The notes beneath the pieces were generated by a model. It had not been told where the DNA came from, ran no database searches, and saw only the letters and a list, made by a program, of their open reading frames with translations. This document shows, in pieces, positions 10,459-39,654 of a stretch of DNA of 44,245 bases. This DNA comes from Escherichia phage SM_W22. The stretch lies in the sequence record PP920555.1, one strand, 5' to 3'. The first letter of the stretch is position 1. Each line of letters opens with the position of its first letter. The translations under genes and the position numbers were made by a program.

Positions 10459-10518
10459 TTTGGCGCAATTCTGCGCGTGCTGTATCATTAAACCGTATAT
10501 CTAAACAGGAGCTTTATT

Positions 10519-11244
10519 ATGGGTTATCAACTTCCCAACGGGTCCAGCGTCCAGATCGGGTCCGTATTAGGCAGCGGCATCGCGGTTACGGCAGCTACCA
10601 ACGCCGCGGCGTCAATCTCCGATCTTACGCAAGGTTGCGTAATTACCTGCGCGGCTTCGCATGGTCTGGTTGTTGGCGACGTTGTTATGTTCACTAAAAC
10701 CCCGTGGGTCCGAGCGCTTAACCGCGCATTCATCGTGGGTAAAGTGGACGCCAACGACGTTACGCTGGCGCGCTTCGACACCGAAGACGTCACAAAATAC
10801 CCGACAGGCGCTTTCAGCGTAGGCACTCCAGGCGAAGTGGTGAAGGTGTCTGGCTTTATCGACTTCCCTTTCATTACTAACGTTGCCGTGTCTGGTGGCG
10901 ACCAGCAGACGACTACCTTCCAGCCGTTGCAGGTGAACACCGCAATCAGTCTGAACACCACGAAAAACCCGTTGGTACAGACTTACACTTTCACCCACGA
11001 CGAAGAAGACCCGATCCGCCCAATCCTGGAAGACCTGGACGACACACAGAAAACCACTGTGATCAAGTTCACTAACCCAGCGGCAGCAAGCGGCAAAGGT
11101 GAGATCCGTATTTACCCGGCAAAGGTATCTTTCCAGAAGATTCCTTCCGCTGAAGTAAACAACGTGGAAACGGTGCAGTCCACTCTGACCATGCAGTCTG
11201 ATATGGTTATCTACCGTAAGGACCTGGTCGAGGCGATGTCTTGA
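10519..11244 (+). CDS. Major tail protein (tail tube)
   Basis: 241 aa, RBS ACAGGAG, followed by strong terminator and chaperone genes (lambda V-like position). Confidence 0.65.
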   Translation: MGYQLPNGSSVQIGSVLGSGIAVTAATNAAASISDLTQGCVITCAASHGLVVGDVVMFTKTPWVRALNRAFIVGKVDANDVTLARFDTEDVTKYPTGAFSVGTPGEVVKVSGFIDFPFITNVAVSGGDQQTTTFQPLQVNTAISLNTTKNPLVQTYTFTHDEEDPIRPILEDLDDTQKTTVIKFTNPAAASGKGEIRIYPAKVSFQKIPSAEVNNVETVQSTLTMQSDMVIYRKDLVEAMS

Positions 11245-11264
11245 TTTGGTCGCTTAAATAGCGA

Positions 11265-11289
11265 GTGTTAATATGGGGCCAGCAAGGCC
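11265..11289 (+). terminator. Intrinsic terminator after major tail protein gene
   Basis: GGGGCC-agcaa-GGCCCC hairpin followed by T8. Confidence 0.8.
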
Positions 11290-11315
11290 CCTTTTTTTTA
11301 TTGGAGAATACTACA

Positions 11316-11678
11316 ATGGCTAAAGCACCACTCTTCACACTTGACCCTAAACCAACATTTAAGCTGCCGATTGAGATCCCGCGCCCTGGTGAGAACGAAC
11401 CAGGCAAGATGACGTTTACCGTCCGCCACCGCCCTATCGACGAATTTTCGCAGACCATGCAGGACACCGAACGCAAGTTGTCGGAGTATGACGACAATGA
11501 CCCGGACGGCTTTAACGTTATGGTCGAGGCCATCATGCACGTCGCAGAAGGCTGGAATCTGCCGGACGAATTTAACGCGGAGAACGTCCGCCGCCTGGTG
11601 GTCAACTATCCACGCGCGTTCGGTGTGTTCCACACGTCGTACTATCTCGAACTGATGGGGTTGCGTGAAAAAAACTAA
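11316..11678 (+). CDS. Tail assembly chaperone (lambda G-like)
   Basis: Track ORF trimmed to Met after terminator; acidic protein upstream of tape measure; ends at slippery heptamer A AAA AAC. Confidence 0.65.
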   Translation: MAKAPLFTLDPKPTFKLPIEIPRPGENEPGKMTFTVRHRPIDEFSQTMQDTERKLSEYDDNDPDGFNVMVEAIMHVAEGWNLPDEFNAENVRRLVVNYPRAFGVFHTSYYLELMGLREKN

Positions 11679-11992
11679 TTGAGGCGGCGCGACGCTTTTA
11701 TGGCCCGCCGCCACCCTCCGAAGATTTAGCCGCAAGTTTATGGGGTGCGGCCCCCGAAGATGTTTGTCCGCCTGTTGCGCTATGGCCCGACAACGCGAAG
11801 GTAGTCGCAGTCTTCACAGATTGCTCCACGCAATGGCGCACCGGTTTTGGTGGCGCATACGGCATCGACTACGGCGTGCTGGAGTGGTTATTTAAGATGC
11901 ACGGTATCGAAAACGAACAGCGCGCGTTTAAAGATATCAAGCTAATGGAACGAATAGCGCTTGATGAGATGGCGCAGCAGAACCCCGCATAA
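11316..11992 (+). CDS. Tail assembly chaperone frameshift product (GT-like), predicted -1 frameshift at about 11669-11675
   Basis: Slippery heptamer A_AAA_AAC at last codons of G-like ORF; -1 frame is open for about 105 further codons with no start codon of its own. Confidence 0.5.
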
Positions 11993-11993
11993 T

Positions 11994-12375
11994 GAAGCGG
12001 GACAGGCGGGACGTCCCGTTTTGTCCCGCCTCTGTAAAACTGCATATCTACTCACTTCCACTGCATAAACTCAAAACGGGACAAGCGGGACGTCCCGTTT
12101 TGTCACGCCCTGTAAATATGCATACCTATGCAGATTTCGTGCATAAACCAAACGGGACAGAAAGCGGGACAAACAAGGGGCGGGACAAAGCGGGACAGCA
12201 CCCCATCCCCGCCAGTGCTGCCGCGGTTTTTAGCCGATCGGGACAGCGGGACAGCACCCCAGTCTTTCAGACTAGACGGGGGTCTATGGCCCCCCTCGTC
12301 TGAGACTGAATAAGGTTTGTTTTGAAATCGCTGATACAATATCCATCGGCAACTGCATAAAAAGGGGACTGCATA
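11994..12375. repeat. Iteron- and palindrome-rich noncoding region (copy A of duplicated element at about 12111-12313)
   Basis: About ten CGGGACA units, perfect palindrome CGGGACGTCCCG twice, CTGCATAA motifs; last roughly 200 bp near-identical to 39447-39654. Confidence 0.75.
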
Positions 12376-15018
12376 ATGGCAGATCAGGCAGCAGGCATCA
12401 CGCTAAAGGCGGATGTCGCACAAATCAGAACGGCGAATACTGTGCTGGATTCATTCGCACAGAAATCCGAGAACACAGAAAACAAGGTTAAGAAATTAAA
12501 CGACACTCTCGGCAAATCCAAAAAGGTGACGAGTGATGCCGCTGGCGGAATGGAGAAGCTGGCAAACGAATCGCAGCGCGCCGCCGATGGCATGACGAAA
12601 CAGGAGCGACTCGCCAACAGGTTAGGCATGTCGACTAAAAACCTGGGCTTTGCCTCGCGTAACGCCGCATTCCAGTTACAGGATATCGCAGTTACGCTTG
12701 AGATGGGGATGCCGGTACACCGCGTTATGCTTCAGCAGTTACCGCAGCTAACTGGGGCGTTCGGTGGATTGGGTAACACTCTGCGTTATGTTGCTGGCTT
12801 CCTCGGTCCAGTTGGGATCGGCCTTGCTGCGGTAACGGCAACGTTAGGCGTGGGCGTAGCAATTACGTCCCGCGCAGAGAACCAGGTCGCAGCGCTTAAC
12901 AAGACGCTGGCGCTGTCAGGTAACATTTCCGGCCTAACGGCAAACCAGATCCTGGTGCTATCCGAGAACGCCGAGCGCATGGGCGGATCATTCCGCAAGA
13001 CGCGTGACACAATCCAGGCGCTGGCGGCGGCGGGTGTGAAAGCGGGGGCGGACTTCGGCGCGCTGGCGAAGGTTGTGAATGACTTCGCGAAGGCGTCTAA
13101 TCAGCCGATCTCTGACGTGGTTGAATCCATCTCAAAATTGTCGAACGACCCAGTGGGCGGACTGCGTGCGCTGGCGGATAAGTATCATGTCGTTACCGAG
13201 GCGCAGATCCAGCAGGTGCAATCGCTTGTAGATATGGGGCGTGAAACGGACGCGGTTGCTCTGGCTAACAAAACAGCCGCTGCGTCGTTCTCCAGCATGA
13301 CCGATGAGGTAAAGTCCAACATGGGTACGCTTGAGCGGTCGATGAACGTAGTTACATCGGCAGCTAAATCTATGTGGGATGCCATCCTGGATGTGGGCCG
13401 CGCGCAGTCCTCGAATGAGTCCGAGATGAAAGCGCGTGAGTCCTTGCAGCGCATGACCACGGCGTACTATGCCGAGATGAGGGCGGTAAACGCTGCCGGT
13501 GGGGTGATGACCGAAGCGCAGAAAGCGCGTATTAACATGCTTTACAGCGAACTGGTCGCCCAGGAAAAGGTAGTAGCGTCGCTCACCCTTCGCAACCGTG
13601 CCGAGCGAGACAGCGCCAGCGCCGCGGATGAAGCAGCAAAGGCGAACGAGGAGGCAAACCGCGCCGCCCGCGACCGCGCCGCGTTTGAGAAGGAGTACGC
13701 AACCAACGCTAAGAAGCGCGCCGACGAGATCGCCCGCCTCAATTTGCTGAATAAGCGCGGCGTGATCGACGAGAAGGAACTGGCTGAGGCGGTGAAGCAG
13801 GTCAACGAGCGCTACAAAGACCCAGCACCGAAGAAGGCAGCGGCTGTTCGCGTGGATGCCGGCATGAAAATGCTGGAGGTCGCACGGAGCGAACTGGCAC
13901 AGCTTCGGGAATCAGGCAAGCAGATTGAGGCCAACTCCTCAACTCAGACCCGCACACAGCGCGCGCAAGCGGCCCTTAACAAGCTGATTGCCGATAATGA
14001 GCAGTTAATCGCAGCTAGTAAGGAAAGGGCACTCACGGCAGCAGAGAAGCAGCAATTAGTCGAATTTGGACGCGTGAAGGAAGTCCGCGAGCAGATCGTC
14101 GAAGAAGCCAAATTGCTGGACGCGAAAGAGAAGCAGGTCAAGGCGCACGCGCAGATCGATGCCTTCGTTAAGAACCAGAACGCAGAGCTAAAAGCCACCG
14201 CCGCGGGCTATGCACTTTCCACTCGCGAAGCGGCTAACCTTCGCGAAGAATTGCAGCTAATTGACCGCCTTCGTCGTGTTGGCGCTAACGATACCGATAT
14301 TGACCTGGCGGTGTCTAAGCTGCGCGAAGTGCAGGAAGCACAGACCGGGGCTAACGCCTCGCTATGGGATGGCTTCAGCCGCGGGCTTAAGGATAGCGTT
14401 GATGAAATGGGTAACGGATATACGCAGATGACGACACTCACAAAATTCACGTTCGGCGCTATGCAGGACACGATGAACGAGTTTTTCGAGACTGGTAAGC
14501 TGAACGCAAAGGATATGGTTAAGTCCATCCTGAGCGAATTAATCAAGCTGGCTACCTCGCAGGCGTTCAAGTCCATCGTTAGCGCTTTCGGTGGCGACGG
14601 CGGCAAAAACGGATTGTTCGGCGCTATCTTCTCTGGCCTTACTAAGAATGCGGACGGCGGAGCGTACGCAGGCGGCAATCTCGCGGCCTATTCGGGGAAA
14701 GTGGTAAGCCAGCCTACCTTTTTCAGTTATGGCGTCCAGGCGTTCGCTAGGGGCGCAGGATTGATGGGCGAGGCTGGTCCCGAGGCCATCATGCCGCTGA
14801 AGCGCGGGCCGGACGGGAAACTGGGCGTTGCCGCGTCTGGCGCAGGCGGTGGTATGGTCGTGACGACTAACGTTTACACGGGGGCCGGTAAAACGGATAC
14901 CAGTGTCAGCGGGCCGGATCCTCGTACCGCGCAGGCGTTCGGCAAGCAAATCACCGAGGCGGTGAAGGCCGAGATCGTGAAGGCGACGAAACCGGGTGGT
15001 GTACTTTACAAACGATGA
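12376..15018 (+). CDS. Tail tape measure protein
   Basis: 880 aa, long coiled-coil/Ala-rich protein with Gly-rich C-terminal region; position after chaperones. Confidence 0.88.
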   Translation: MADQAAGITLKADVAQIRTANTVLDSFAQKSENTENKVKKLNDTLGKSKKVTSDAAGGMEKLANESQRAADGMTKQERLANRLGMSTKNLGFASRNAAFQLQDIAVTLEMGMPVHRVMLQQLPQLTGAFGGLGNTLRYVAGFLGPVGIGLAAVTATLGVGVAITSRAENQVAALNKTLALSGNISGLTANQILVLSENAERMGGSFRKTRDTIQALAAAGVKAGADFGALAKVVNDFAKASNQPISDVVESISKLSNDPVGGLRALADKYHVVTEAQIQQVQSLVDMGRETDAVALANKTAAASFSSMTDEVKSNMGTLERSMNVVTSAAKSMWDAILDVGRAQSSNESEMKARESLQRMTTAYYAEMRAVNAAGGVMTEAQKARINMLYSELVAQEKVVASLTLRNRAERDSASAADEAAKANEEANRAARDRAAFEKEYATNAKKRADEIARLNLLNKRGVIDEKELAEAVKQVNERYKDPAPKKAAAVRVDAGMKMLEVARSELAQLRESGKQIEANSSTQTRTQRAQAALNKLIADNEQLIAASKERALTAAEKQQLVEFGRVKEVREQIVEEAKLLDAKEKQVKAHAQIDAFVKNQNAELKATAAGYALSTREAANLREELQLIDRLRRVGANDTDIDLAVSKLREVQEAQTGANASLWDGFSRGLKDSVDEMGNGYTQMTTLTKFTFGAMQDTMNEFFETGKLNAKDMVKSILSELIKLATSQAFKSIVSAFGGDGGKNGLFGAIFSGLTKNADGGAYAGGNLAAYSGKVVSQPTFFSYGVQAFARGAGLMGEAGPEAIMPLKRGPDGKLGVAASGAGGGMVVTTNVYTGAGKTDTSVSGPDPRTAQAFGKQITEAVKAEIVKATKPGGVLYKR

Positions 15019-35893: not shown

Positions 35894-36322
35894 TTAATCT
35901 TCCAGTTCGAAATAGGTTTCGACGATTTCTTTTAGCTCTTTGTGGAAGTCTTCGACGTCGTCATCTTCCAGCTTGGCGATTGATTTGATCTCGAACGATT
36001 CCAGCAGGTCGTCGAATTCGTCGTTCGCATCGTCGTCGTCACCACCGGCAATAATCGCGGCATACTGTTTGATCTCGTCGCGCATCTCTGCCAGCGGATC
36101 GGCATCTTTCTTGCCTTTGCCTTTTGCCGGTGCTTTTTTAGACTTAGCCGGTTTTTCGTCTTCAGCTTCATCGTCGTCATCTTCGACAACTTCTTTTTTG
36201 GCCTTAGACGGCTTCTTATCTTCCTGTTTACCAACGGCAGCGCCAACGGTTTCATAATGCTTTGCAATGGTTTCCAGTGCTACTACTCCGCGAGTGATCA
36301 GGTTTACGATTTGCTCAAACAT
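35894..36322 (-). CDS. Acidic early protein (first gene of leftward early operon)
   Basis: Track ORF trimmed to Met at 36322; about 142 aa with long D/E runs interrupted by a K-rich segment. Confidence 0.5.
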   Translation of the reverse strand: MFEQIVNLITRGVVALETIAKHYETVGAAVGKQEDKKPSKAKKEVVEDDDDEAEDEKPAKSKKAPAKGKGKKDADPLAEMRDEIKQYAAIIAGGDDDDANDEFDDLLESFEIKSIAKLEDDDVEDFHKELKEIVETYFELED

Positions 36323-36727
36323 GGTATATCTCCGATTGGTTAAGTTTAGGTGTCGGCAGTTAACTTCGTCGGTGGCCTTAACATATTGCCAGGTTACGCG
36401 TTCTCCCGTTCGGGTAGTGGACCTGGTTATATAATCACGGTTGGGAATCCTGACACTTCGATCCGGCCCCTGCGTTGCCCCTCTCCAGTTTGCGTCCTGC
36501 ATCCTGTCGACGGAGTGAATGATAGATTGGTTGCAGGATGGGTGTCAACAACTAATTTCAAAAAAAAAAAAGCGCCGAGGCAAAATGCACCGGCGCTAAC
36601 CAATAAGAGACAATGAGACGGGAATTATTATTACACGCGTGCGCGCCCGTTTCAATATCCAAAGGATTTGACACCTTGTGGTTTTAGGTGTAGTTTCATT
36701 GGTCATTAACCAACAGGAGACTGAATT
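36323..36727. promoter_or_regulatory. Divergent early control region
   Basis: About 400 bp noncoding between divergent operons; contains TTGACA -35-like hexamer, ATTGGTTGCA motif (36526-36535), A12 tract and hairpin. Confidence 0.45.
36559..36597 (-). terminator. Terminator-like hairpin with 12-A tract (T12 on minus strand)
   Basis: AGCGCCG-13 nt loop-CGGCGCT preceded on plus strand by A12; oriented to stop leftward transcription. Confidence 0.35.
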
Positions 36728-37057
36728 ATGAATATCAAAGAAGCAATTGAAGTGTTATCTAATGCAATCCGCGGCGAAGCGGGTAAATCCTGGTATTACA
36801 CAAATGCGGTGGATACTCTGTTATTTGAAGTGTCCAGATTATCGCGTGCTGAGAAGGAGCTTACCGCGAAGCTGGAATTGCTCAACGGCACGGCAGCAAG
36901 CAAGCTGCAAAAACACAATGAAGAAATGGAAGAATACAAAAAACAGGTTATCCGTCTACGTGAGGAAGGTAAATCCTGGGCGATGATTGCCGAGTTGACC
37001 GGAATTAATCAGAGCACAGTGCGCTCCTGGGTACGCAATAATAAAACTTCTAAGTAA
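36728..37057 (+). CDS. HTH DNA-binding protein (putative transcriptional regulator)
   Basis: 109 aa; C-terminal helix-turn-helix-like segment SWAMIAELTGINQSTVRSWV; first gene of rightward operon; RBS CAGGAGA. Confidence 0.55.
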   Translation: MNIKEAIEVLSNAIRGEAGKSWYYTNAVDTLLFEVSRLSRAEKELTAKLELLNGTAASKLQKHNEEMEEYKKQVIRLREEGKSWAMIAELTGINQSTVRSWVRNNKTSK

Positions 37058-37067
37058 GGCCACGGCA

Positions 37068-39332
37068 ATGAGCTTAATTAAATTCGCTGTAACAAGACCC
37101 GCTAAAAAAGGCGAAAAAGCCAGGGCGGAAAACTTCCAGATGACGACCGATGAATTTTTCGAATTTATCAAAGATGCGAAAGAGATATCGTCGGTGCATA
37201 TCAACAAGACGGAAGATAAAGCCGAGTATGCGCGCCGCAAGCGTAAGGCCGATGGCATCGTGGCGTATACCAGTGACGGATTGCGTCGTAAGACCAGTGC
37301 GGTGGACCTCTCGATCCTGTTCTTTGATATTGACCGCACCGACACCCGCACCCTGCGCCGCTGCCGTAAGGCGTTCATCGACTCGGGTCTGGAACACGTA
37401 TTTCACACCACCACCGGCGACCGCCACCCGCTGAAGGGCGGCACGCGTTGCGCCCGTTTCCTGGTGCTCACTGACAAGCCTGTACCGGCTGAAGACCTGG
37501 GCCGCGTCCAGTATGCACTATTACACCAACTGGGTCTGTCAGATGTGGACTTCGACGATTGCACGAAAGATACAAACCGCCTGATGTACCTGCCACACCA
37601 GCAGTCCGTTATTAAGTGCCACTATGGCAAGCGCGCCAATGTGCGTCGTCTACTCCGTCGGGCGGACAAGCTGGGGGTGGAAAAAGAGGAAGTACGCCGC
37701 GAGCTTACCCAGGGCGACGACGCAGTGGCAGACGGCATTCTGGACTGGTGCTTCCAGGCCGGATTCGAGGAGTTATCTTCTGGTCGCGGTTATGAAGTGC
37801 CGTGCCCGAACGAACATCTGCACAGCGGCGAAGGGTCGACGGCTATCATGGTCAAGGATGGCGAGATCCGTTTCAAGTGTATGCACACCGGCAACGAGTG
37901 TTGCTCGGAGCTGAACAGACACCAGCACCTGGCGCTACGTCTTATCGGGATCCCGGACCACCTGAACGTCGAGCCACACAACATGTCCCGTAAGCAAATC
38001 GCCGCCATCCTCCCCGGACTGGACGACGAGGAAGTGGAATCGTGCTATGAACATATCGTTGATGCGGTCGGAGACGGCGACGAGTACGGCGGATGTACCG
38101 ACGCTGACCTGGATAACGAACCGGTCGCACTGTTCAGTAAGCACGACCCGATCATAGAAGGCCTGGTCAACTTCAAATCGACCTGGTATATGGCTGGCGA
38201 GTCGAACATCGGTAAATCGTTCTACGTGCTGGGGCAAATGGGTGCGGTTGCCGCGGGGATTCCGTTCGGCGGTGCGAAGGTCGTCCAGTCCCATTGCTTC
38301 TATTTCGACGCGGAAGGTGGCGAAGCCTCCAACCAGCGTAAGGAAGCATTGCAGATCAAATACGAGCACGACCTCGACAAGCTGCACATTATCGATCTGC
38401 AATCACGCGGCTGGGATATCACCAGCAAATCCGGCTTGCGTGAAGTTATCAGCTTCATCAACCGCACCGCTAACGGCGAACCGGTTGGCCTGGTGGCGTT
38501 CGACTCACTCAACCAGACGGTTGCGCTGCGGTCCGCCGATGCCAAACCGTTCGACGAGAACAACGCCAGCGATATGGGCGAAGTGGTCAAGGCGCTGAAG
38601 GCCATCGCGGAAAATACAGGCGGCAGTGCGGGCGTCATCCACCACCCGGCGAAGGGTGCAAACGGCAGCAGATCACCCCGCGGGTCCGGCGCGCTGCATG
38701 GTGCTGTCGATTCTGCGTTCTTCCTGGAGCAACCGGACGACAATCAACCAGGCCAATTGAACCTGTATCACGAAAAGGCACGTAACGGCATCAAGCAAGC
38801 GCCGCGTGGCTTCGTCCTGCTCAAGTGCAAGGTGAAGGTAGATCTCCGCAAGTCCGAGGCGTTCGAATCGCACCAGTCCACCAGCACCGGGCCTGACTTC
38901 GGCGACGTCGTTGCCGGTTGGGACGTCAAGCCGATTGCCTCCACGCCACGCGACGAGACTCTGTACCTCGTACCGGTCGCCCTGGCACCGTTCGCCATCG
39001 AACAGGCGAAGGCCGCAGGAAAAGCCGCGGTTAAGGAAGAGAACACCGCAGGACCGCGCACCGAAAAAGAAAAGGTACTTTACGCGGCCCTGGAAAAACT
39101 GATGGAAGATAACCCGGACCATACTGGTTTCAGTAAATCGGCAATCGTCCGCCAGGCGGGATTGGCAAAAGGTGGAACATCGACGAAGGCAATCGACGAT
39201 ATGGTCGAGCGCGGCGTACTCGGTTTTTATACCGATCCGCACACCGGGGCCATCTATGGGTCGTCTAATATCGTCATAAAAACAAACATACCAACCACAC
39301 TTTCGGCGACCGACGACGACTTAAAAGATTAA
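37068..39332 (+). CDS. DNA primase / replicative helicase (primase-polymerase N-domain plus RecA-like ATPase)
   Basis: 754 aa; N-terminal region with DxD (FFDIDRTD) and Cys/His cluster, central Walker A-like GESNIGKS. Confidence 0.7.
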   Translation: MSLIKFAVTRPAKKGEKARAENFQMTTDEFFEFIKDAKEISSVHINKTEDKAEYARRKRKADGIVAYTSDGLRRKTSAVDLSILFFDIDRTDTRTLRRCRKAFIDSGLEHVFHTTTGDRHPLKGGTRCARFLVLTDKPVPAEDLGRVQYALLHQLGLSDVDFDDCTKDTNRLMYLPHQQSVIKCHYGKRANVRRLLRRADKLGVEKEEVRRELTQGDDAVADGILDWCFQAGFEELSSGRGYEVPCPNEHLHSGEGSTAIMVKDGEIRFKCMHTGNECCSELNRHQHLALRLIGIPDHLNVEPHNMSRKQIAAILPGLDDEEVESCYEHIVDAVGDGDEYGGCTDADLDNEPVALFSKHDPIIEGLVNFKSTWYMAGESNIGKSFYVLGQMGAVAAGIPFGGAKVVQSHCFYFDAEGGEASNQRKEALQIKYEHDLDKLHIIDLQSRGWDITSKSGLREVISFINRTANGEPVGLVAFDSLNQTVALRSADAKPFDENNASDMGEVVKALKAIAENTGGSAGVIHHPAKGANGSRSPRGSGALHGAVDSAFFLEQPDDNQPGQLNLYHEKARNGIKQAPRGFVLLKCKVKVDLRKSEAFESHQSTSTGPDFGDVVAGWDVKPIASTPRDETLYLVPVALAPFAIEQAKAAGKAAVKEENTAGPRTEKEKVLYAALEKLMEDNPDHTGFSKSAIVRQAGLAKGGTSTKAIDDMVERGVLGFYTDPHTGAIYGSSNIVIKTNIPTTLSATDDDLKD

Positions 39333-39446: not shown

Positions 39447-39654
39447 AGTGTAAATATAATGAATAGTTATGCAGTTTTGCTGCATAAAGTAAGCGGGACA
39501 AAAAGCGGGACAAACAAGGGGCGGGACAAAGCGGGACAGCACCCCCGTCCCGCCAGTGCTGCCGCGGTTTTTAGCCGATCGGGACAGCGGGACAGCACCC
39601 CAGTCTTTCAGACTAGACGGGGGTCAATGGCCCCCCTCGTCTGAGACTGAATAA
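39447..39654. repeat. Copy B of duplicated roughly 205 bp iteron element (GCGGGACA repeats)
   Basis: Aligns by eye at roughly 90-95% identity with 12111-12313, including five GCGGGACA units and a GC-rich terminal hairpin. Confidence 0.75.

What the first reader, a model, noticed from the sequence alone, without database searches (positions are those of the whole stretch)
11316..11992. Programmed -1 ribosomal frameshift in tail assembly chaperone (G/GT-like)
The G-like ORF ends ...GAA AAA AAC TAA; the heptamer A_AAA_AAC is a canonical slippery site. The -1 frame from that point is open for about 105 codons to a stop near 11990 and has no start codon producing an ORF of its own, so no independent ORF is listed there. 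This matches the conserved G/GT frameshift strategy of long-tailed phages, and the extension ends exactly where the iteron region begins.
Basis: partly seen in the sequence, partly recalled or inferred. Interest (0 to 1): 0.5.

Follow-up and report, generated by a model that had tools for sequence, protein, structure and literature searches.

The report
Tail chaperone G/GT −1 frameshift site
This is the usual programmed −1 ribosomal frameshift that long-tailed phages use to make a little extended tail-assembly chaperone alongside the short one; it is real and strongly conserved, but ordinary, and public genomes of this phage genus simply do not annotate it.

Summary
The window is a Dhillonvirus, an HK578/SO-1-like E. 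coli siphophage. Between the tail tube gene and the tape measure gene lies a 120-aa ORF (11316-11678, Pfam Phage_TAC_4) that ends CGT GAA AAA AAC TAA.

The −1 frame is closed by a TGA at 11666-11668. It is then open from 11669 to the TAA at 11990-11992. The two frames therefore overlap only in the heptamer A_AAA_AAC (11669-11675).

The extension encodes a complete DUF1799 domain. Its first ATG/GTG/TTG is 67 codons in, so it cannot be made whole on its own.

- In 90 of 92 distinct relatives (G 39-100% identical), AAAAAAC plus the following T is invariant, and a −1 extension of at least 100 codons is kept.
- Sequence variation switches its three-base rhythm from frame 0 to frame −1 at the site.
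- T1-like homologues share the same heptamer and adjacent stop, and two of them (Stevie, Sweeny) carry annotated joined frameshift products.
- A Ralstonia phage has G_GGA_AAC plus a stop instead.
- Within Dhillonvirus, a 23-nt fully invariant stretch covers the heptamer, the stop, a 7-nt spacer and the 5' arm of a −17 kcal/mol hairpin.

Verdict: a real G/GT-type −1 frameshift giving G (14.0 kDa) and GT (25.6 kDa). It is a new member of a known kind and of low interest.

The parts
10519..11244 (+). Tail tube (major tail) protein gene, the upstream neighbour that fixes the G/GT position
   Evidence: Pfam Phage_tail_3 PF08813, E = 6e-32; ORF list
11275..11299 (+). Terminator-like hairpin GGGGCC-AGCAA-GGCCCC followed by T8, between the tail tube gene and G. 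It may lower transcription of the chaperone and tape measure genes relative to the tube gene.
   Evidence: Consensus scan. Annotated as a terminator in phage CS16 and at the equivalent place in T1 and Stevie. Function inferred, not tested.
11316..11678 (+). G: tail assembly (tape measure) chaperone ORF, 120 aa, 13.96 kDa, with GGAG at 11303-11306 as the likely ribosome binding site
   Evidence: Translation; Pfam Phage_TAC_4 PF08748 covering 1-124 of 124 profile positions, E = 1.4e-23; PHROG 569 and 17368; mass
11666..11668 (+). TGA in the −1 frame that closes that frame immediately 5' of the heptamer, so the shift cannot happen further upstream
11669..11675 (+). Slippery heptamer A_AAA_AAC, the proposed site of the −1 shift
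   Evidence: Sequence. It is the only overlap of the two frames. It is invariant in 90 of 90 distinct intact relatives, while neighbouring third codon positions vary. The same heptamer occurs in T1, Stevie, 12397I, SRT8 and JLBYU07, and G_GGA_AAC in a Ralstonia phage.
11676..11678 (+). Frame-0 stop TAA directly 3' of the heptamer. It is TAA or TGA in all 90 relatives and may act as a pause element ('shifty stop').
   Evidence: The stimulatory role is inferred.
11683..11712 (+). Candidate stimulatory hairpin GGCGGCG...CGCCGCC (11 pairs with bulges), 7 nt after the heptamer
   Evidence: Fold −17.1 kcal/mol, z about −1.8. The stem arms are invariant in 28 Dhillonvirus haplotypes. Variable sites fall in unpaired positions or keep a G-U pair. 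T1-like phages have a hairpin at the same spacing (L124, z = −5.9). Several prophage clades show nothing significant.
11675..11992 (+). T: −1 frame extension, 105 codons plus TAA (LIEAARRF...QQNPA). It is translated only as the C-terminal part of GT. The predicted product is join(11316..11675,11675..11992), 225 aa, 25.6 kDa.
   Evidence: Variable sites by codon position in the −1 frame are 22/9/71%.
11741..11971 (+). DUF1799 domain inside the extension. It begins 45 codons upstream of the first possible start codon in that frame (GTG 11876).
   Evidence: Pfam PF08809 covering 1-80 of 80 profile positions, E = 2.8e-21; start codon positions
12376..15018 (+). Tape measure protein gene, the downstream neighbour
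   Evidence: Pfam TMP_2 and Tape_meas_lam_C

Best explanation
Ribosomes translating the chaperone gene G (11316-11678) mostly terminate at TAA 11676. This gives the 120-aa G protein.

A small fraction slips back one base on A_AAA_AAC (11669-11675). In that event tRNA-Lys moves from AAA to AAA and tRNA-Asn moves from AAC to AAA. The next codon read is then CTA at 11675, and translation continues for 105 more codons to TAA 11990-11992. The product is a 225-aa GT fusion with the junction ...REKN-LIEAARRF.... It consists of the Phage_TAC_4 domain followed by a DUF1799 domain.

By analogy with lambda gpG/gpGT, the G parts would coat the tape measure protein. The rarer T part would recruit the tail tube protein, and neither would end up in the virion.

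The heptamer is a weak shifter in E. coli, which suits a low GT:G ratio. The stop codon directly behind it may raise or set the rate. In this genus, the hairpin 7 nt downstream may do the same.

**Shown here:** the frame geometry, the domain content, the conservation of the heptamer, and purifying selection in the −1 frame.

**Inferred:** that the fusion is made, its ratio to G, the roles of the stop and the hairpin, and the assembly function.
For: **Geometry**
- The two frames overlap only in the heptamer.
- The +1 frame is closed.

**Coding content**
- G is a full-length Phage_TAC_4 domain, and the extension is a full-length DUF1799 domain.
- PHROG 17368, a 213-position profile, matches G at positions 1-107 and T at positions 147-212. 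A fused family therefore exists.
- The first start codon in the −1 frame is at codon 67. It lies inside the domain, and its position is not conserved between clades.

**Comparative evidence**
- There are 92 distinct relatives from viral and bacterial genome collections. Of these, 90 keep a −1 extension of 100-105 codons. The other two are a nonsense mutant and a truncated prophage.
- AAAAAAC plus the following T is invariant in 90 of 90. The neighbouring third codon positions 11660, 11663 and 11666 take 3-4 different bases.
- 11675 stays C even though C to T would be silent in both frames. The one AAT variant is the locus that has lost T.
- Five sequences have GGA AAA AAC and the T1-like phages have GTA or GCA AAA AAC. 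The heptamer is thus kept with only six A's.
- A Ralstonia phage has G_GGA_AAC TGA. That is a different heptamer that is still slippery.

**Within Dhillonvirus (28 haplotypes)**
- Variable sites by codon position are 9/6/72% in G. In T read in the −1 frame they are 22/9/71%.
- The longest run of invariant third positions is 8, spanning 11669-11689. The next longest is 3, and the permutation p is 0.005.

**Precedent**
- Stevie's G is 42% and its T 35% identical to those of the window.
- Stevie and Sweeny carry annotated joined frameshift products (PMC4319613).
- The eiAU paper predicted the frameshift for homologues of SO-1 gp15 and gp16 (PMC3025963).
- A_AAA_AAC is the proven IS1 shift site in E. 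coli. It is of low efficiency there and has no established stimulator (PMC4066793).
Against: - No protein or ribosome-profiling data were available, so the fusion has not been seen.
- A_AAA_AAC is an inefficient shifter in E. coli (PMC4066793, PMC5009743), so the yield may be very low.
- The downstream hairpin is only marginal against shuffled sequences (z about −1.8). It is not conserved in several prophage clades.
- No natural in-frame TAC_4-DUF1799 fusion appeared among the top 150 of 1124 DUF1799 cluster representatives. All were 38-150 aa.
- The SO-1 record annotates the extension as a separate gene starting at ATT.
Confidence: 0.9

Rival explanations
1. Transcriptional slippage. RNA polymerase adds one extra A in the A7 run (11668-11674). 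A fraction of the mRNAs then read ...GAA AAA AAA CTA ATT... in a single frame and give a GT protein with the junction ...REKK-LIEAAR.
For: The window has seven consecutive A's at the site. One inserted A would put the T frame in phase. Slippage of this kind is documented in bacteria and in IS elements (reviewed in PMC5009743).
Against: - Homologues keep the in-phase heptamer with only six A's: GGA AAA AAC in five prophage sequences, and GTA or GCA AAA AAC in T1, Stevie, SRT8, JLBYU07 and 12397I.
- The Ralstonia homologue has GGGGAAAC, which has no long homopolymer run but is a canonical ribosomal heptamer.
- From general knowledge, not tested here: efficient slippage by E. coli RNA polymerase needs longer runs, about 9 or more.
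- The invariant C at 11675 and the invariant adjacent stop codon have no role in this model.
Confidence: 0.04
2. The extension is a separate gene. Translation starts independently at the ATT at 11678-11680, which overlaps the G stop (TAATT), as annotated for gp16 of Sodalis phage SO-1. It could also start by termination-reinitiation. Either route would give a free 104-aa T protein and no fusion.
For: The SO-1 record annotates gp16 as starting at that position. Gene callers across databases list DUF1799 proteins as stand-alone ORFs of 38-150 aa.
Against: - The codon at that position is ATT in only 16 of 90 relatives. It is ATA in about 27 and AGG in about 47, and it is AAA in the T1-like phages.
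- No Shine-Dalgarno sequence precedes it at a usable distance. The upstream sequence is GCGTGAAAAAAACTA.
- Start codon positions in the −1 frame scatter from codon 5 to codon 74 between clades. That is the pattern expected if gene callers take whatever start is available.
- This model does not explain why the heptamer's three silent third positions are invariant.
Confidence: 0.04
3. The open −1 frame is a non-functional remnant or a chance open frame, and only G is made.
For: None beyond the absence of direct protein data. Ten sampled Dhillonvirus records do not annotate the frame as a full gene.
Against: - The extension gives a full-length Pfam DUF1799 match, E = 2.8e-21.
- Codon-position variation of 22/9/71% in the −1 frame shows purifying selection.
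- An extension of 100-105 codons is kept in 90 of 92 relatives down to 39% identity in G.
- DUF1799 has 1124 cluster representatives.
Confidence: 0.01

Closest known systems
Phage lambda gpG/gpGT and the conserved tail-assembly-chaperone frameshift of long-tailed dsDNA phages (Levin 1993; Xu, Hendrix and Duda 2004, 2013, 2014, as reviewed in PMC5009743)
   Same: The ORF pair lies between the major tail and tape measure genes. The second ORF is in the −1 frame and has no start of its own. [quoted passage not shown] The expected outcome is a low level of fusion product.
   Different: The heptamer is A_AAA_AAC, not lambda's G_GGA_AAG. The frame-0 stop follows the heptamer immediately, and the frames overlap by only 7 nt. 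Searches report only Phage_TAC_4 and DUF1799 for these proteins and list no lambda-named G or T family. A 383-nt repeat-rich spacer separates T from the tape measure gene.
T1-like (Drexlerviridae) tape measure chaperones, e.g. Citrobacter phage Stevie CPT_Stevie15/16 and Klebsiella phage Sweeny, with annotated joined frameshift products
   Same: They are true homologues: Stevie's G is 42% and its T 35% identical. T1, Stevie, SRT8, JLBYU07 and 12397I have the same A_AAA_AAC followed directly by TAA, and four of those five (not 12397I) show a hairpin about 7 nt downstream by eye or by folding. The joined CDS is annotated in Stevie and Sweeny (PMC4319613; U136B in PMC8104045).
   Different: They have six A's rather than seven. 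The tape measure gene starts about 40 nt after T, with no repeat spacer. Sweeny uses a different site, GCA AAA GTT TAA. Many T1-like records, including T1 itself, still annotate two separate genes.
IS1 insA / insAB' −1 frameshift at A_AAA_AAC in E. coli
   Same: It uses the same heptamer in the same host. It is a proven shift site of low efficiency with no established stimulator, and it is used to make a small amount of a fusion protein (PMC4066793).
   Different: The proteins and the biology are unrelated (a transposase rather than a tail chaperone). This is a resemblance in mechanism only, not family membership.
Edwardsiella phage eiAU ORF23/ORF22, homologues of Sodalis phage SO-1 gp15/gp16
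   Same: The published paper predicts the conserved tail-assembly frameshift for this same gene pair. SO-1 is a Dhillonvirus whose G-T region is 95.9% identical to the window (PMC3025963).
   Different: The paper names no slip site, and the eiAU sequence itself was not examined here.

Membership tests
G/GT-type tail assembly chaperone with programmed −1 frameshift | Gene pair located between the major tail (tube) protein gene and the tape measure protein gene, on the same strand | tested here: met
   Tube gene 10519-11244 (Phage_tail_3), G 11316-11678, T to 11992, tape measure gene 12376-15018 (TMP_2)
G/GT-type tail assembly chaperone with programmed −1 frameshift | Second reading frame is −1 relative to the first, overlaps its 3' end, and lacks its own start codon and ribosome binding site | tested here: met
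   The −1 frame is open from 11669 to 11992. The first ATG/GTG/TTG is at codon 67. Start positions are not conserved among clades.
G/GT-type tail assembly chaperone with programmed −1 frameshift | In-phase slippery sequence (X_XXY_YYZ) inside the overlap | tested here: met
   A_AAA_AAC at 11669-11675 is the whole of the overlap
G/GT-type tail assembly chaperone with programmed −1 frameshift | Slip site and two-frame arrangement conserved among diverged homologues | tested here: met
   Invariant in 90 of 90 relatives. The same or an equivalent heptamer occurs in T1-like phages and in a Ralstonia phage.
G/GT-type tail assembly chaperone with programmed −1 frameshift | Both parts are under selection as protein, the second in the shifted frame | tested here: met
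   Pfam Phage_TAC_4 and DUF1799, both full length. Third-position variation is 72% in G and 71% in T read in the −1 frame.
G/GT-type tail assembly chaperone with programmed −1 frameshift | A fusion protein is actually made at a few percent of G, is needed for tail assembly, and is absent from virions | not testable with these tools
   Needs western blotting, mass spectrometry or a reporter assay, plus genetics
G/GT-type tail assembly chaperone with programmed −1 frameshift | Chaperone fold shared with characterised tail assembly chaperones | tested here: inconclusive
   No solved structure was found by sequence. The single-sequence AlphaFold model of G had mean pLDDT 55, too poor for a fold search.
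Stimulated bacterial −1 frameshift of the dnaX / IS3 type (heptamer plus downstream structure) | Stable, conserved downstream stem-loop or pseudoknot 5-9 nt after the heptamer | tested here: inconclusive
   A hairpin lies at 11683-11712 (−17.1 kcal/mol, 7-nt spacer, z about −1.8). Its arms are invariant within Dhillonvirus, and a hairpin is present at the same spacing in T1-like phages (L124, z = −5.9). It is not significant in several prophage clades.
Stimulated bacterial −1 frameshift of the dnaX / IS3 type (heptamer plus downstream structure) | Upstream Shine-Dalgarno-like stimulator about 10 nt 5' of the heptamer | tested here: not met
   Only ATGGGG (Met-Gly codons) lies 8 nt upstream, and there is no GGAGG-like element. 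Position 11660 is freely variable.

The most novel reading that the evidence does not exclude
The frame-0 stop codon sits directly behind the heptamer in every intact homologue that keeps an X_XXA_AAC heptamer: 90 of 90 relatives, the T1-like phages and the Ralstonia phage. That invariance could mean it is part of the signal.

On this reading the shift is a termination-paused event, a 'shifty stop'. The P-site and E-site tRNAs would slip while the A site waits for a release factor, rather than by classical A/P tandem slippage. The GT:G ratio would then depend on release-factor activity and on the host's physiological state.
Probability: 0.2. Interest if true: 0.35.

Novelty: new member of a known kind. 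Interest (0 to 1): 0.2.

Why it matters
The main value is for annotation. Ten of ten sampled Dhillonvirus GenBank/RefSeq records lack the joined GT product. Instead they list spurious 31-38-aa fragments or an ATT-started gene, and several label G itself 'major tail protein' or 'tail length tape measure protein'. Of the 158 matching records, 157 cover at least 80% of the G-T region.

A correct join(11316..11675,11675..11992) would fix this for a phage genus that is widely used in E. coli collections and in therapy screens.

The site is also a compact natural test case. The frames overlap by only the 7-nt heptamer, the heptamer is weak in E. coli, and a stop codon lies directly behind it. That makes it suitable for asking how much an adjacent stop codon and a short hairpin contribute to −1 frameshifting in E. 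coli. It does not change what is known about tail assembly.

Tried and rejected
- **Long-range RNA structure.** Folds of 92-121 nt downstream of the site are no better than shuffled sequences (z = 0.07 and 0.47). Only the local 30-nt hairpin stands out, and only marginally.
- **Hairpin covariation.** The hairpin arms do not vary at all in the 28 Dhillonvirus haplotypes, so no compensatory changes can be counted. Across clades the sequences differ too much and the structures are heterogeneous.
- **Search for natural or annotated fusions.** The word-indexed search with the fused sequence returned only three hits, none fused. The exhaustive search with T found 1124 clusters, but the top 150 are all 38-150 aa. 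PHROG 17368 and the joined CDSs in Stevie and Sweeny are the only fused entries seen.
- **Structure route.** G alone gave a model with pLDDT 55, which is unusable. There was no PDB relative by sequence and no NCBIfam model.
- **Literature.** No paper was found that mentions a Dhillonvirus or HK578 frameshift, DUF1799 in this context, or Phage_TAC_4.
- **Upstream Shine-Dalgarno-like stimulator.** Considered and rejected.
- **ORF-end baseline.** The crude baseline of −1 frame lengths after all ORF ends in the window was uninformative, because ordinary overlapping downstream genes dominate it.
- **Metagenome scan.** The 18-mer scan returned mostly chance hits. Only the roughly 44-kb Dhillonvirus contigs were useful.

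Full report
**What the window is.** The region 10500-12400 is 95-97% identical to dozens of Dhillonvirus genomes. These are HK578/SO-1-like E. coli siphophages such as Oekolampad, TheodorHerzl, mckay and SECphi18. The G-T region matches 158 phage records, and 157 of them cover at least 80% of it.

**Checking the observation.**
- The ORF starts at ATG 11316, preceded by GGAG at 11303-11306. It ends ...CGT GAA AAA AAC TAA, with the stop at 11676-11678, and encodes 120 aa.
- In the −1 frame there is a TGA at 11666-11668. After it the frame is open through 11989 to TAA 11990-11992. That is 107 codons, 104 of them beyond the G stop.
- The two frames are therefore open together only across 11669-11675, which is exactly the heptamer A_AAA_AAC in the X_XXY_YYZ phase.
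- The +1 frame closes after one codon.
- The first ATG/GTG/TTG in the −1 frame is GTG 11876, at codon 67. This explains why no ORF of 40 aa or more is listed there.
- AAAAAAC occurs only twice on the + strand of the whole window.
So is the remark that the extension stops where the repeat region begins.

**What the two frames encode.**
- G matches Pfam Phage_TAC_4 (phage tail assembly chaperone) over the whole profile, E = 1.4e-23.
- The extension matches DUF1799 over the whole 80-position profile, E = 2.8e-21. The match covers residues 25-101 of the extension (11741-11971), well upstream of the first possible start codon.
- The upstream neighbour is the tail tube protein (Phage_tail_3). The downstream neighbour is an 880-aa tape measure protein (TMP_2, Tape_meas_lam_C).
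- PHROG 17368 has 213 positions and matches G at 1-107 and T at 147-212. Fused entries of this family therefore exist in phage databases.

**Comparative evidence across relatives.** Searches of the viral and bacterial genome collections with G, and with an alignment of G homologues, gave 92 distinct G-T sequences with G 39-100% identical.
- Ninety keep a −1 extension of 100-105 codons. The two exceptions are a prophage with a nonsense mutation inside T and a truncated locus.
- In the 90 intact sequences, A AAA AAC plus the next T is invariant. The third codon positions just upstream (11660, 11663, 11666) take three or four different bases.
- The three third positions inside the heptamer could change silently: GAA to GAG, AAA to AAG, AAC to AAT. 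They never do.
- C to T at 11675 would be silent in both frames (Asn in frame 0, Leu in frame −1). The only AAT seen is in the locus that has lost T.
- Downstream of the stop, the variable columns move to the third positions of the −1 frame.

**Comparative evidence within Dhillonvirus.** There are 28 haplotypes of the 677-nt region, including those recovered from metagenomes.
- Variable sites by codon position are 9/6/72% in G and 22/9/71% in T read in the −1 frame. If T is read in frame 0 instead, the variation piles up at 'position 2'.
- The longest run of invariant third positions is 8, at 11669-11689. The next longest is 3, and the permutation p is 0.005. The longest fully invariant stretch is 23 nt, 11667-11689.

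**More distant homologues.** By tblastn, the G family is present in about 1100 phage records and the T family in about 1160. Most are T1-like Drexlerviridae.
- T1, Stevie, SRT8, JLBYU07 and 12397I end G with GCA or GTA AAA AAC TAA. This is the same heptamer and the same adjacent stop, with six A's rather than seven.
- A Ralstonia phage has CGG GGA AAC TGA, that is G_GGA_AAC plus a stop. Its extension begins KLIEAARRLY, almost the same as the window's KKLIEAARRFY.
- The heptamer can thus change identity while staying slippery. This is the pattern expected for ribosomal slippage and not for polymerase slippage on an A run.
- Klebsiella phage Sweeny uses a different site, GCA AAA GTT TAA.

**Mechanism.**
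- The best-supported mechanism is −1 ribosomal frameshifting on A_AAA_AAC. It would give G (13.96 kDa) and a minor GT fusion (225 aa, 25.6 kDa, junction REKN-LIEAAR).
- A_AAA_AAC is the proven shift site of IS1 in E. coli. It is classed as low-efficiency there, though above 0.1% without stimulators, and it has no established stimulator (PMC4066793). It is far weaker than A_AAA_AAG (PMC5009743).
- A weak site fits the roughly 30:1 G:GT ratio known for lambda (PMC5009743).

**Two possible modulators.**
- The frame-0 stop directly 3' of the heptamer is conserved in all 90 relatives as TAA or TGA. Position 11678 stays A even though the −1 frame amino acid it starts varies (Ile, Arg, Lys, Thr). This suggests that the stop itself is under selection. 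Whether it acts as a pause element is inferred, not shown.
- A hairpin at 11683-11712 (GGCGGCG/CGCCGCC) lies 7 nt after the heptamer and folds at −17.1 kcal/mol.
  - Its arms do not vary in Dhillonvirus.
  - The variable sites nearby lie in unpaired positions or keep a G-U pair.
  - T1-like phages have a hairpin at the same spacing (L124, z = −5.9).
  - Several prophage clades show nothing significant there. I therefore call it a candidate stimulator only.
- No Shine-Dalgarno-like element lies upstream.

**Rivals.**
- Transcriptional slippage on the A7 run would also fuse the frames, with the junction EKK-LIEAAR. It is disfavoured by the A6 homologues and by the GGGGAAAC homologue.
- Independent initiation at the ATT that overlaps the stop is how the SO-1 record annotates gp16. 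It is disfavoured for three reasons:
  - That codon is ATT in only 16 of 90 relatives and AGG in about half.
  - No ribosome binding site precedes it.
  - The model leaves the invariance of the heptamer unexplained.
- A non-functional frame is excluded by the domain match and the codon-position pattern.

**Comparison with what is known.**
- This is the conserved tail-assembly-chaperone frameshift first shown for lambda G/GT and generalised by Xu, Hendrix and Duda (reviewed in PMC5009743).
- In the same protein family, joined frameshift products are already annotated for Stevie and Sweeny. They are also mentioned in genome announcements (PMC4319613, PMC8104045).
- The eiAU paper predicted the frameshift for homologues of SO-1 gp15 and gp16 (PMC3025963).
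- No paper was found that describes it for Dhillonvirus.
- None of the ten Dhillonvirus records inspected has the join: SECphi18, CS16, jat, UDS3lw, phiEco273, Zar3M, Oekolampad, SO-1, JL1 and the unannotated LM40P1. They list 31-38-aa fragments, an ATT-started gene, or nothing. G is variously called 'major tail protein', 'tail length tape measure protein' or 'hypothetical protein'.

**Verdict.** It is an unannotated member of a well-known kind, so interest is low. The only slightly unusual points are the 7-nt minimal overlap and the universally adjacent stop codon behind a heptamer that is weak in E. coli. Direct proof needs detection of the fusion protein and its junction peptide.

Noticed in passing
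window 11993-12375 and 39449-39654: The 383-nt gap between the T stop and the tape measure start is packed with CGGGACA repeats in both orientations. The window holds 20 copies against 6.0 ± 2.5 expected, and 9 of them lie in this gap. The gap also holds two tandem units of about 78 nt and three copies of ACTGCATAA, the last overlapping the tape measure ATG. Segment 12111-12313 is duplicated at about 93% identity at 39449-39654, downstream of the 754-aa ORF 37068-39332. The SO-1 record calls these 'region A' and 'region B' (direct, inverted and palindromic repeats). T1-like relatives and phiES15 have no such spacer. Function unknown: possibly binding sites for a regulator, or a replication or packaging element.
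   Followed up: partly
window 12283-12313 and 39624-39654: Both copies of the duplicated repeat module end in the same GC-rich inverted repeat, GACGGGGGTC(T/A)ATGGCCCCCCTCGTC, nested inside CAGTCTTTCAGACT...TCTGAGACTG. No T run follows, so it does not look like a standard intrinsic terminator.
   Followed up: no
window 11275-11299: A terminator-like hairpin (GGGGCC/GGCCCC followed by T8) lies between the tail tube gene and G. The same placement is annotated in CS16, T1 and Stevie. It would lower chaperone and tape measure transcription relative to the tube protein.
   Followed up: partly
window 36560-36571: An A12 run lies in the divergent intergenic region between the − strand ORF 35894-36502 and the + strand ORF 36728-37057. 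It is probably just an AT tract in a promoter region.
   Followed up: no
public records (loci L001, L127, L182, L183): Product names for G are wrong in several records. It is called 'major tail protein' in RefSeq SECphi18, and 'tail length tape measure protein' in phiEco273, JL1 and T1. PHROGs 569, 680 and 17368 label both chaperone families 'tail length tape measure protein'.
   Followed up: yes
L184 (Klebsiella phage Sweeny) 880-895: This Webervirus homologue, which has an annotated frameshift product, lacks the A_AAA_AAC heptamer. Its G ends GCA AAA GTT TAA, so the shift must use a different and weaker-looking site (A_AAA or A_AAG-like). The site has therefore been replaced within the family.
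   Followed up: partly
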